Source: Eledone cirrhosa (Eukaryota). From it: a stretch of 64,000 nt of DNA. Below, in pieces: positions 3,150 through 58,678 of this stretch. Made by a program: the position numbers and the translations under genes. Position 1 is the stretch's first letter. Each line of letters opens with the position of its first letter. The stretch covers positions 265,608,001-265,672,000 of the forward strand of contig OZ024743.1 in assembly GCA_964016885.1 (NCBI GenBank). Reading direction: 5' to 3'. Under the pieces are notes generated by a model. That model was not told where the DNA came from and ran no database searches. It was given only the letters and a program-made list of their open reading frames with translations.

Positions 3150-4447
3150 TAGGAGGTGAGTTTTATTGTAGTACAATAAAACAATGCAGATATCGGATAA
3201 GAAGCACTCTACAGTTTGTAGGACTGGAGTATAGATAATATAAGATCAAAAGATGGTTAAAGGAGTTCCATGTATTTTATTATGCGCATTTCCATAGGAC
3301 TTTTCACAAAGTATACAGTTAATATTCAATTCTTTATCAATTTAGAATCTTTTCTCAAAGGCACATATACATACACCTCTTTAAAATATACCCATCTTCC
3401 TACCTTACTTTAAAGGGCATTATACAATCTATAATACTTGTTTACTCATTACACTCTTTCTATCTTCACCTTGTAAAATCCTTCATAACATATACATTTG
3501 TTTTTTTTTGACGTTAGAATATTCATCCGCAATCATTATTATTTTTTCTCTCTATCATAAAACTTTTTAATCTCAATTTCATCCTTAATTTATTATTTTT
3601 TTCTCCCCATCAACGAACTCATTCTTAATACATATTAACTCTTTATTCGCATATATTATCAATTCCTTCAATATACAAACTTTAACTTCACATTATTTTT
3701 CTCGAATCCTTCTACACACAAACCTTAATAATTTTTCTCTTCGTTAATTTTGAAATTGCCACAATACTTATCAACATACACTTTTTTTGACGTTAGAATA
3801 TTCATCCACAATTATTATTTTTTCTCTCTATCTTCATACATAAATTCCCTTCGTTAATTTTCAAATTCCTTTAATTTATACATTATCTTCCAACGGTTCT
3901 CAACCTCTCTATGTAAAACAATATATCTTTTTCTCAGTTATAAAAACTATCTCTTTCTCTCTATCACCCATCTCTCCCTCTCCACCTTCACTCTCATCTC
4001 CTCCCCCTTTTTTCATCCTTTCCAACCCCCTCGCTTAATAAAATATTTTCTCCTCGCACATATCCTCCCTTCGTTAATTTTCAATTTCTTTTAATTTATA
4101 CATTATCTTCCAACGGTTTTCAACCTCTCTATGTAAAACAATATATCTCCTCTCAGTTATAAAAACTATCTCTTTCTCTCTATCACCCATCTCTCCCTCT
4201 CATCTCCTCCCCTTTTTCATCCCCCCCCTCTCTAAATAAAATATTTTTCCCAATATCACACATCAATCTAAAACCACTTTTCATATGTTGATTTAAAATT
4301 GCACTATCCACAAGTGTTTTTTAGCCTTCATATCATGTTCTCCTGTTTTATCTGATGAAAACACAAATATTATTGCATGATGATGTTTGTTTTTGAAATG
4401 CGCATAATAAAATACATGGAACTCCTTTAACCATCTTTTGATCTTAT
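3150..4447 (+). mobile_element. Non-coding PLE-like 3' region with HHR and an inverted terminal arm
   Basis: Inverted repeat 3240-3292 / 4395-4447. Internal direct repeats at ~3500/~3780 and ~3846-4030/~4065-4240. HHR at the 3' end. Flanked by (TA)n. Confidence 0.7.
4346..4412 (+). ncRNA. Type I hammerhead ribozyme
   Basis: ttttat-CTGATGA-aaacacaaata..tgtttgtttt-GAAA-TGCGCA (palindromic stem III)-TA-ataaaa. Stem I is ttttat/ataaaa. Confidence 0.8.
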
Positions 4448-6401
4448 ATTATATATATATATATATATATATATATATATATATATATATATATATATAT
4501 ATATATATATATATATATACATATATATATATATATATATACATATATATATATATACATATATATATATATACATATACATATATATATATACATATAT
4601 ATATATATACATATACATATATATATATACATATATATATATATATATATATATACATATATATATATATACATATATACATATATATATATATATATAT
4701 ATATATATATATATACATATATATATATATATAAATATATATATATATATACATATATATATATATACATATATATATATATATATATACATATATATAT
4801 ATATACATATATATATATACATATATATATATATATATATACATATATATACATATATATATATATATATACATATATATATATATACATATATATATAT
4901 ATATACATATATATATATATATATATATATATATATATACATATATATGAATATATATATATATATATATATATATATATATATATATATATATATATAC
5001 ATATATATATATATATATATATATATATATATATATATATATATATATATGTATATACATATATATATATATATATATATATACACATATATATATATAT
5101 ATATATTCATATATATATATATATATATACACATATATATATATATATATATTCATATATATATATATATATATATATATATTCATATATATATATATAT
5201 ATATATATATATATATATATATATATATATATATATATATATATATATTCATATATATATATATATATATATATATATATATATATATATATATATATAT
5301 ATATATATATATTCATATATATATATATATATATATATATATATATATATATATTCATATATATATATATATATATATATATATTCATATATATATATAT
5401 ATATATATATATATATTCATATATATATATATATATATATATATATATATATATATATATATATATATATTCATATATATATATATATATATATATATAT
5501 TCATATATATATATATATATATATATATATATATATATATTCATATATATATATATATATATATATATATATATATATATTCATATATATATATATATAT
5601 TCATATATATATATATATATATATATATATATATATATATATATATATTCATATATATATATATATATTCATATATATATATATATATATTCATATATAT
5701 ATATATTCATATATATATATATATATATATATATATATTCATATATATATATATATATATATATATATATTCATATATATATATATTCATATATATATAT
5801 ATATATATATATATATATATTTATTTATATATATATTCATATATATATATATATATATATATATATATATATATATATATATATATATATATATATATTT
5901 TCATATATATATATATTCATATATATATATATATATATATTCATATATATTCATATATATATATATATATATATATATATATATATTTTTTCATATATAT
6001 ATATATTCATATATATATATATATATATATTCATATATATTCATATATATATATATTCATATATATATATATATATATATACATATATATACATATATAT
6101 ATATATATATATTCATATATATTCATATATATATATATTCATATATATATATATATATATAAATATATATACGTATATATATATATATATATATATATAT
6201 ATATATATATATATATTCATATATATATATATATATTCATATATATATATATTCATATATATATATATATATATATATATATATATATATTCATATATAT
6301 ATATATATTCATATATATATATATATTCATATATATATATATATATATATATATATATATATATATATATATATACATATATATACATATATATATATAT
6401 A
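4448..6401. repeat. ~1.95-kb interrupted (TA)n array
   Basis: Seen directly. CA interruptions give way to TTCA interruptions. Confidence 0.97.
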
Positions 6402-58360: not shown

Positions 58361-58520
58361 ATATATATATGCCTGTGTGTGACGTATATATGTATATATA
58401 TACTTCACAAACACATATATAAATATATATATAGTAATAATAATAAATTTGAAGACTAAAATCCAAAGAGGGCTCGATAAGGATAAATATATATCAAATA
58501 TATAAGAACCGTAGTGCAAA

Positions 58521-58678
58521 TATTTATTAAAATAACAGATTAAAGTTTAAGCAAAGTATCGCTGCTTTCACACTTAACGGGATGTTCTGAAACTATCTGG
58601 TTAGTTTCAGAAGATCCCGTTAAGGGTGAAAGCAGCGATTCTTTGCTTAAACTTTAATCTGTTATTTTAATAAATATA
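58521..58678. repeat. ~155-bp snap-back palindrome with an HHR-like remnant
   Basis: Arms 58521-58595 and 58602-58678. cAGAAGA-t-ccc-gttaa-ggg-t-GAAA starts right after the loop. Confidence 0.75.

What the first reader, a model, noticed from the sequence alone, without database searches (positions are those of the whole stretch)
3240..58678. Inversion breakpoints cluster in or beside the ribozyme
Seen: the inner arm boundary falls at the GAAA (3292/4395), 5 nt past stem I (35048), ~7 nt past stem I (44223), and just past stem I (50094). It also falls in stem II (30036 and ~41690), in the stem III loop (9118), and just before the core (58600). Inference: ribozyme cleavage or ribozyme stems define where reverse transcription ends and the cDNA snaps back or switches template. 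Counter-examples exist at 10-13, 23.6, 40.7 and 42-45 kb, where the arms extend well past the HHR.
Basis: partly seen in the sequence, partly recalled or inferred. Interest (0 to 1): 0.8.

Follow-up and report, generated by a model that had tools for sequence, protein, structure and literature searches.

The report
Penelope inversions record RNA 5' ends
In this animal genome, head-to-head Penelope-like retroelement copies join mostly at one fixed point per family that carries an extra G and is likely the capped start of the RNA rather than the hammerhead ribozyme cut, which would mean the inversions arise when both cut DNA strands prime copying of one RNA.

Summary
The window is full of Penelope-like (PLE) pseudo-LTR fragments in head-to-head pairs inside (TA)n. 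In an evenly spaced 800 kb sample 21 of 36 inner boundaries lie within 10 nt of the hammerhead, so the pattern is real. The general cause is not the ribozyme. In 306 junctions from 12 families, six families have one sharp hotspot, from 75 nt before to 46 nt after the core start. In three it is the A of an initiator-like site with a non-templated G in front (21 of 29 vs 25 of 133). Genome-wide in family F1, 1,920 junctions have both arms ending there; 30-177 fall in five other windows, declining smoothly with no ribozyme bump. Pairs join a short-start arm to a tail-bearing arm (130 vs 9), often non-nested, which favours twin priming on one RNA over snap-back. A minor cut-site class is suggested only in tandem retrozyme-like families (11 of 66 vs 4 expected, post hoc). 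No RNA data were available.

The parts
3158..3292 (-). F1 tail-bearing inverted arm, 5' end at -12 (GAAA)
3293..4445 (+). F1 long arm ending at the short start site; type I hammerhead 4344-4414 (core 4352, cut before 4407); family hotspot (likely RNA start) about 4283
9013..9144 (.). F2 pair, perfect palindrome centred on loop III at 9118/9119; tail arm on -, short arm on +
10070..12975 (-). F3 PLE: 5'-truncated broken ORF 12669..10712 (RT then GIY-YIG), 3' pseudo-LTR about 10400..10075, inverted pseudo-LTR 12641-12975 on + ending at -78; non-consensus core
23595..24790 (.). F4 pair, inner end -246, degenerate ribozyme (counter-example)
29249..30290 (.). F5 tandem-unit family (U3-A8 core), junction at 30036 (-37 joined to -232)
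34650..35113 (.). F6 tandem-unit family; hammerhead 34956-35043, cut before 35039; tail arm ends at about +6, junction at 34831
36088..36790 (.). F7 pair; short arm starts at -90, the family hotspot (junction 36664); long arm holds a PLE RT-like fragment
41629..41830 (.). F2 pair, both arms end at the family hotspot (-40), 12-nt insert at 41684-41695; cut before 41736
43507..44028 (.). F10a pair, inner end -101, upstream of the ribozyme
44071..44666 (.). F10b (530-nt tandem unit, intact core): forward copy on -, short arm 44628-44666 ending at about +10, F10a-derived piece between the arms
49979..50312 (.). F8a pair, junction at the stem II hairpin 50109-50127
58447..58684 (.). F11 pair, both arms end at the family hotspot (-47/-49) at the 5' edge of stem I; core CAGAAGA

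Best explanation
The breakpoints of these head-to-head Penelope-like pairs pile up at one family-specific point with an extra G in front, likely the capped 5' end of the element RNA, and the pairs likely form by twin priming, with the ribozyme mostly a bystander. Shown: the family hotspot, its initiator-like context and extra G in F1, F2 and F11, the pairing of a short-start arm with a tail-bearing arm, non-nested arms, shared haplotypes, and joins by microhomology or short inserts. Inferred steps: the element protein cuts both strands of a (TA)n target; each DNA end primes reverse transcription on the same RNA at one of two fixed internal start sites that bound the tail; each cDNA runs toward the 5' end, the downstream one either stopping at the upstream primer (non-overlapping class) or displacing it; many run off at the cap and copy it as a C; the two cDNA 3' ends are joined by end-joining at the nearest self-complementary bases. 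In F2 and F11 the RNA start happens to lie inside or at the edge of the hammerhead, which produces most of the apparent ribozyme clustering. In tandem retrozyme-like families there is no sharp capped hotspot, and a minority of junctions may record the ribozyme-cut 5' end.
For: Hotspot share of arm ends: F1 37 of 72, F2 92 of 142, F3 8 of 24, F7 20 of 56, F11 27 of 84, F8a 14 of 80, all P<1e-4. Offset to the core varies from -75 to +46 and distance to the short start site from 56 to 324 nt. Single-base peaks sit on the A of TC-ATAT, TT-AGTC and TT-AGTT. First non-templated base is G in 21 of 29 hotspot ends vs 25 of 133 other ends, P=5e-8. Genome-wide, 2,606 F11 copies have a non-template base there; G in 53 of the first 100 listed, A 25, C 22 (counted by eye). 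Non-inverted truncated copies share the point (F1 8 of 41, F2 17 of 69, F3 10 of 30). F1 genome-wide symmetric-junction counts with like-built patterns: anchors +27, +2, -25, -59, -83 give 177, 134, 84, 66, 30; anchor -124 gives 1,920; after correction for anchor conservation the first five lie within 0.90-1.17 of a log-linear fit that predicts 27 at -124. Short+tail pairs 130, tail+tail 7, short+short 2, other 22 of 161 junctions not selected through the tail. Short-start arm reaches further upstream in 104 of 240, so neither arm contains the other. 17 of 246 are non-overlapping, as in classical twin priming. Arms share minor alleles at 304 of 442 sites vs 0-23% between insertions. Both outer ends abut dinucleotide runs in 217 of 299. 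PMC11167929 (parts 1-2 of 4 read): a PLE protein cuts and extends both strands, uses two start sites bounding the tail, is predicted dimeric, and ribozyme mutants do not change insertion in vitro.
Against: No RNA 5'-end data, so the start site is inferred. The extra G was testable in only three families; F3, F7 and F8a were ambiguous because G is templated in some subfamilies. F7, F11 and F8a solo copies show the hotspot weakly (2 of 34, 3 of 52, 4 of 57). Only 30 of 60 informative pairs have concordant arms and 8 of 60 are clearly discordant, so some pairs used two templates; concordance could also come from later gene conversion. PMC11167929 saw no strand difference in start-site use in vitro, whereas the genome shows strict short+tail pairing. 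Intact-core families show an excess at -1..+8 (17 of 170 vs 9.0, P=0.008). In tandem family F10b 5 of the first 50 listed symmetric junctions have both ends within 2 nt of the cut and about 24 of 50 lie at an A/T palindrome at +6..+11. One genome only; end calls are good to about 3 nt.
Confidence: 0.66

Rival explanations
1. Ribozyme self-cleavage makes the RNA 5' end at which reverse transcription runs off, and so sets the junction. It may hold for a minority of junctions in tandem, retrozyme-like families.
For: Tandem intact-core families: 11 of 66 junctions with an end at -1..+8 vs 4.0 expected, P about 0.0003; non-consensus-core families 1 of 136 vs 8.4. F10b: 152 symmetric junctions near the cut, 5 of 50 with both ends within 2 nt of it without a palindrome, about 24 of 50 at the first palindrome downstream. 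These families form 420-590 nt head-to-tail units.
Against: Window and grouping were chosen after seeing the data; for +-3 nt the tandem test gives 5 of 66 vs 2.7, P=0.12. Non-tandem intact families 6 of 104 vs 5.0. F1 genome-wide has no bump. In 5 of those 11 junctions the partner arm runs 130-338 nt past the cut. The matching downstream control for F10b was not run, so its palindrome class may be ordinary. Confidence given is for the general rule; as a minor route in tandem families I put it near 0.5.
Confidence: 0.08
2. One cDNA folds back on a hairpin (ribozyme stem or other) and primes itself, or an antisense RNA self-primes, making the inverted arm as a copy of the first.
For: Perfect palindromes and hairpin-centred joins occur: stem III palindrome 14 of 50, stem II apex 23 of 50, window 9118 and 50118. 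Arms usually share haplotype. Self-priming on an antisense template was proposed in PMC3846280 (passages).
Against: A fold-back copy must be contained in the first strand; 104 of 240 pairs are mutually non-nested, 17 of 246 do not overlap, and 8 of 60 have discordant arms. A hairpin outside the ribozyme is used as readily (15 of 50). The G signature points to a sense, capped template.
Confidence: 0.12
3. Two separate RNAs in a dimeric complex are each primed once, and their cDNAs are joined head to head.
For: 8 of 60 informative pairs are discordant (e.g. L025 0 of 5, L376 0 of 6 shared alleles). The protein is predicted dimeric (PMC11167929). The RNA 5' end would still set the hotspot.
Against: Does not by itself explain strict short+tail pairing (130 vs 9) or tail arms that stop exactly at the short start site (F11 9 of 37). 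F1 arms agree at 86 of 91 minor-allele sites.
Confidence: 0.1
4. The hotspot is a splice acceptor, a strong pause site, or the end of a few master palindromes amplified whole.
For: F2, F3, F11 hotspots look like pyrimidine-AG; PMC4209133 (passages) notes an intron ending at helix I in Drosophila virilis Penelope. About 22 of the first 50 F1 hotspot junctions are the same perfect palindrome.
Against: Arms keep the AG and gain one G, not a constant upstream exon; F1 has no AG. The remaining junction inserts differ copy by copy, and the same junction occurs on different subfamily haplotypes. A pause would not add G.
Confidence: 0.04

Closest known systems
Endonuclease-positive Penelope-like elements with inverted pseudo-LTRs (PMC8557442, PMC3846280, PMC2377424; passages read)
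   Same: RT followed by GIY-YIG, pseudo-LTR with type I hammerhead, inverted 5'-truncated copy head to head, optional tail on one side, (TA)n targets, promoter inside the pseudo-LTR.
   Different: Those papers describe the inverted structure but leave its origin open or propose antisense self-priming. Tails here measure about 40-165 nt rather than 30-40. I found no map of junction positions or of an extra G in the passages read.
Anolis Poseidon in vitro mechanism (PMC11167929; parts 1-2 of 4 read)
   Same: Two internal start sites bounding the tail, both strands cut and extended, AT-rich target, ribozyme dispensable.
   Different: The parts read do not address inverted copies; the genomic data here show the two sites are used as a pair in one insertion.
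LINE-1 twin priming (described in 10.1101/2024.08.27.596794, passages; original Ostertag and Kazazian 2001 seen only as a reference)
   Same: Both target ends prime on one RNA; microhomology joins the cDNAs; internal deletion or duplication at the join.
   Different: In L1 the second primer anneals at chance sites and overlap is short. Here both start sites are fixed, overlap is often complete, and both cDNAs often reach the RNA 5' end.
Cap-derived untemplated G at L1 5' junctions (PMC9341517, PMC2831318; passages)
   Same: A single extra G before an initiator-like pyrimidine-purine start.
   Different: Seen here at the centre of inverted pairs, often on both arms.
Animal non-LTR retrozymes (PMC7761336 passages; bioRxiv 10.64898/2026.07.22.740005 part 1 of 5)
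   Same: F5, F6, F10b, F12 are head-to-tail units with an intact type I hammerhead.
   Different: Units are 420-590 nt (150-300 quoted), carry PLE-style tails and inversions; circular RNA untested.

Membership tests
Endonuclease-positive Penelope-like element | RT followed by C-terminal GIY-YIG endonuclease | tested here: met
   F3 in window: PF00078 E=1e-9 and PF01541 E=3.5e-5. F8a and F7 references carry GIY-YIG-like and RT-like peptide fragments by eye. No ORF link found for F1, F2, F4, F5, F6, F10, F11, F12.
Endonuclease-positive Penelope-like element | Pseudo-LTR with inverted 5'-truncated copy and one-sided tail | tested here: met
   306 junctions; short+tail pairing 130 of 161
Endonuclease-positive Penelope-like element | Placement in the PLE RT tree (Penelope/Poseidon, Neptune, Nematis) | not tested
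   No tree built; DKG motif and Cys-rich linker seen by eye suggest Neptune-like (recalled criteria plus PMC8557442 passage)
Type I hammerhead ribozyme | Consensus core and three stems | tested here: met
   Met in F1, F6, F7, F8a, F10b, F12 and in F5 as the U3-A8 variant named in PMC4209133; not met in F3, F4, F11, F10a; mixed in F2 (4 of 12 U3-A8). No hammerhead among the 150 Rfam rows shown of 286.
Type I hammerhead ribozyme | Self-cleavage | not testable with these tools
   needs in vitro assay
Twin priming | Both arms templated by RNA, not one by the other | tested here: met
   104 of 240 non-nested, 17 of 246 non-overlapping
Twin priming | Both primers on the same RNA molecule | tested here: inconclusive
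   304 of 442 alleles shared, but 8 of 60 pairs discordant; gene conversion not excluded
Twin priming | Target-site duplication showing one insertion event | not testable with these tools
   Flanks are dinucleotide repeats, which hide duplications
Capped RNA start run-off | Untemplated G before an initiator-like A | tested here: met
   F1, F2, F11; ambiguous in F3, F7, F8a
Capped RNA start run-off | Capped transcripts begin there | not testable with these tools
   no RNA holder listed
Non-LTR retrozyme | Tandem units each with a hammerhead | tested here: met
   F5, F6, F10b, F12
Non-LTR retrozyme | Circular RNA | not testable with these tools
   no RNA reads

The most novel reading that the evidence does not exclude
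The hallmark inverted pseudo-LTR of Penelope-like elements is made by programmed twin priming: a dimeric reverse transcriptase primes both target strands at two fixed sites on one RNA, copies the same 5' segment twice, and the join records whichever 5' end the RNA had, a cap in promoter-driven families and the hammerhead cut in tandem retrozyme-like families. Genomic junctions would then be a fossil start-site map and the first in vivo read-out of PLE ribozyme activity.
Probability: 0.35. Interest if true: 0.78.

Novelty: new variant of a known kind. Interest (0 to 1): 0.55.

Why it matters
How Penelope-like elements form their inverted and tandem structures is named as an open problem in PMC8557442, and the role of their hammerheads is unknown. 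This genome holds thousands of junctions per family and gives three testable rules: junctions peak at the RNA start, the two arms use different start sites, and ribozyme cleavage leaves little or no mark except perhaps in tandem families. It links the two in vitro start sites of PMC11167929 to the inverted copies and offers a way to map PLE promoters from DNA alone. The elements themselves are a known kind. My searches (open-licence library only) found no paper mapping PLE junctions, a cap G in PLEs, or twin priming in PLEs; subscription papers and supplements were not seen.

Tried and rejected
Rfam scan: the 150 rows shown of 286 were microsatellite artefacts, so a custom descriptor was used. 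First F7 DNA search found nothing; a pattern worked. Automatic reference choice timed out or was fragile; single real copies were picked by eye. F8b was left out of all junction counts because its anchor drew mostly repeat noise; F15 and the pairs at 1.8-2.5, 40.7-41.3 and 51.5-52.3 kb had no usable reference. An early cut-site test wrongly removed F5 ends and was redone. Fixed offset to the ribozyme and fixed cDNA length both rejected. The higher counts at the F1 ribozyme than upstream of it (134, 84 vs 30) first looked like enrichment but fit a distance gradient once +27 and -59 were added. F5 symmetric search gave 2 matches, uninformative. F6 hotspot not significant (3 of 24). The scan's own findings held nothing.

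Full report
Setting. The window lies at G000:C4:265608001-265672000 in a 3.0 Gb animal genome; I did not determine the species. It is rich in (TA)n runs and holds many inverted pairs. One pair flanks a broken ORF on the minus strand with RT (PF00078, E=1e-9) followed by GIY-YIG (PF01541, E=3.5e-5), so at least family F3 is a canonical Penelope-like element. A custom type I hammerhead descriptor gave 48 hits in 800 kb of evenly spaced genome and 0 in its shuffle. Cores are consensus in F1, F6, F7, F8a, F10b, F12, the U3-A8 variant in F5, mixed in F2, and non-consensus in F3, F4, F11, F10a. I grouped F2 with the non-consensus set.

Check of the observation. Seven of eight listed breakpoints are correct to a few bases; 50094 is a stem II hairpin join at 50109-50127, and 44223 has a piece of a neighbouring family between the arms.

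Sample. I collected 490 loci plus the window (2.05 Mb): copies found with 3'-end or tail queries, and 80 evenly spaced 10-kb stretches. Arms were mapped by BLAST to one real reference copy per family, with 0 at the predicted cut. 330 head-to-head calls reduced to 306 distinct junctions in 12 families. End calls are good to about 3 nt, and queries for F1, F2, F5, F8a, F10b and F11 selected tail-bearing or downstream-intact copies.

Main result. Six families have one sharp hotspot: F1 -126, F2 -41, F3 -105, F7 -89, F11 -46, F8a -97 (37 of 72, 92 of 142, 8 of 24, 20 of 56, 27 of 84, 14 of 80 ends). Relative to the core start these are -70, +46, -75, -41, -5, -62, and relative to the short start site 167, 56, 324, 125, 71, 251 nt. 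Neither the ribozyme nor a fixed cDNA length sets the point. F2 and F11, which are abundant, have it inside or at the edge of the ribozyme and supply 87 of the 145 near-ribozyme junctions. In F1, F2 and F11 the single-base peak is the A of an initiator-like sequence (the initiator consensus is recalled). Where a non-templated base follows, it is G in 21 of 29 hotspot ends against 25 of 133 elsewhere (P=5e-8). Genome-wide, 2,606 F11 copies have a non-template base at that place and 53 of the first 100 listed have G. An untemplated G is the known mark of copying a cap in L1 (PMC9341517, PMC2831318, passages). No constant upstream exon is seen, which argues against splicing. Non-inverted copies are truncated at the same point in F1, F2 and F3 but only weakly in F7, F11 and F8a.

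Genome-wide test in F1 (intact core; 5,988 tail matches). Patterns of equal build counted junctions with both arms ending within 30 nt in sum of an anchor: +27: 177, +2: 134, -25: 84, -59: 66, -83: 30, -124: 1,920. After correction for anchor conservation the first five fit a log-linear decline within 0.90-1.17 and predict 27 at -124. Some hits at -25 and -59 come from related subfamilies. Among 539 junctions with one arm at the hotspot and the other near the cut, 99 of the first 100 scored by eye gave 11, 17, 34, 4, 20 and 13 in successive ten-base bins from -40 to +20; six were exactly at 0, as many as at -14, -15 and -17. Inside each window joins gather at self-complementary bases: loop III palindrome 14 of 50, stem II apex 23 of 50, and a non-ribozyme hairpin 15 of 50 (by eye).

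Ends within 3 nt of the cut are 10 of 340 in intact families (flank mean 5.9, P=0.076). For -1..+8, chosen afterwards, 17 of 170 junctions qualify against 9.0 expected (P=0.008), and 1 of 136 in non-consensus families. The excess lies in F5, F6, F10b and F12 (11 of 66 vs 4.0) and not in F1, F7, F8a (6 of 104 vs 5.0). Those four form 420-590 nt head-to-tail units like retrozymes and lack a sharp hotspot. In F10b, 152 symmetric junctions lie near the cut; of the first 50, 5 have both ends within 2 nt of it and about 24 sit at an A/T palindrome at +6..+11. The matching control further downstream was not run, so this remains suggestive. Pausing at the 3' edge of the folded ribozyme would give a similar signal.

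How the pair forms. Each family has two fixed 3' ends, a short site and a tail site. Among 161 junctions not selected through the tail, 130 join one of each, 7 two tails, 2 two short ends, 22 other. In 104 of 240 such pairs the short arm reaches further upstream, so neither arm contains the other and fold-back copying is impossible; 56 have the tail arm longer and 80 end together. In 17 of 246 the tail arm begins right at the short site with no overlap, 9 of them in F11. Arms share minor alleles at 304 of 442 sites (F1 86 of 91) against 0-23% between insertions, but 8 of 60 informative pairs are discordant. Joins show at least 2 nt of microhomology in 133, blunt or 1 nt in 52, and inserts in 121 of 306; many inserts are short repeats of the arm end, as expected of polymerase theta end-joining (recalled). 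Both outer ends abut dinucleotide runs in 217 of 299. This matches the in vitro behaviour of Anolis Poseidon: both strands cut and extended, two start sites bounding the tail, ribozyme mutants without effect (PMC11167929). I infer twin priming on one RNA with displacement of the upstream cDNA, and two RNAs in a minority.

Known and new. Inverted pseudo-LTRs, tails, microsatellite targeting, hammerheads and the internal promoter are known (PMC8557442, PMC3846280, PMC2377424, PMC4209133; passages). PMC4209133 already notes opposite-strand ribozyme pairs 100-700 bp apart. The origin of the inverted copy is stated as open in PMC8557442, and antisense self-priming was proposed in PMC3846280. Searches found no junction map, cap G or twin-priming account for PLEs in the library held; papers outside it and supplements were not seen.

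Verdict. Observation partly confirmed; ribozyme-as-cause not supported in general and possible as a minor route in tandem families. The follow-up yields a specific, testable mechanism for a long-noted structure, from one genome and without RNA data.

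Noticed in passing
window 6406-8890 (+): 5'-truncated CR1/L2-like LINE with a 624-aa open RT frame (6945-8819, PF00078 E=1.8e-30), set between TA runs.
   Followed up: partly
L154, L159, L230: A tandem array family with an intact minimal hammerhead in every unit (11 or more units in L230), a classic retrozyme-like satellite not present in the window.
   Followed up: no
window 44493-44627: A piece of family F10a, copied from the neighbouring element at 43803-43972 with a deletion, sits between the two F10b arms; L253 also joins F10a and F6 sequence, suggesting template switching between families.
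   Followed up: partly
F2 copies, e.g. window 41696-41740 and L023: The likely RNA start lies inside stem II, so the 5' copy of the ribozyme on the RNA lacks its core; in F11 the start coincides with the first base of stem I and the core has a family-wide U4A change.
   Followed up: partly
F8a and F8b pseudo-LTRs, e.g. window 58095-58105 and 37372-37382 (-): A YY1-like motif (recalled) lies just downstream of the F8a hotspot and is kept in F8b.
   Followed up: no
window 28020-28794: Two direct copies of a small pseudo-LTR with an intact hammerhead (28098, 28686) inside a 590-bp duplication, nested with F12 fragments.
   Followed up: no
window 1824-2477, 40742-41352, 51467-52310, 59688-59817: Further inverted pairs; ribozyme not located or family not mapped for the first three, the last belongs to F12.
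   Followed up: no
window 60636-63197: A composite element with terminal direct repeats and internal 80-bp and 37-bp tandem arrays, possibly Helitron-like.
   Followed up: no
L110-L112 (G000:C1:172.89-172.91 Mb): Identical F4 copies spaced 4.7 kb apart, a larger tandem duplication.
   Followed up: no
window 50994-51036 (+): An isolated intact minimal hammerhead next to a TA run with no inverted partner found.
   Followed up: no
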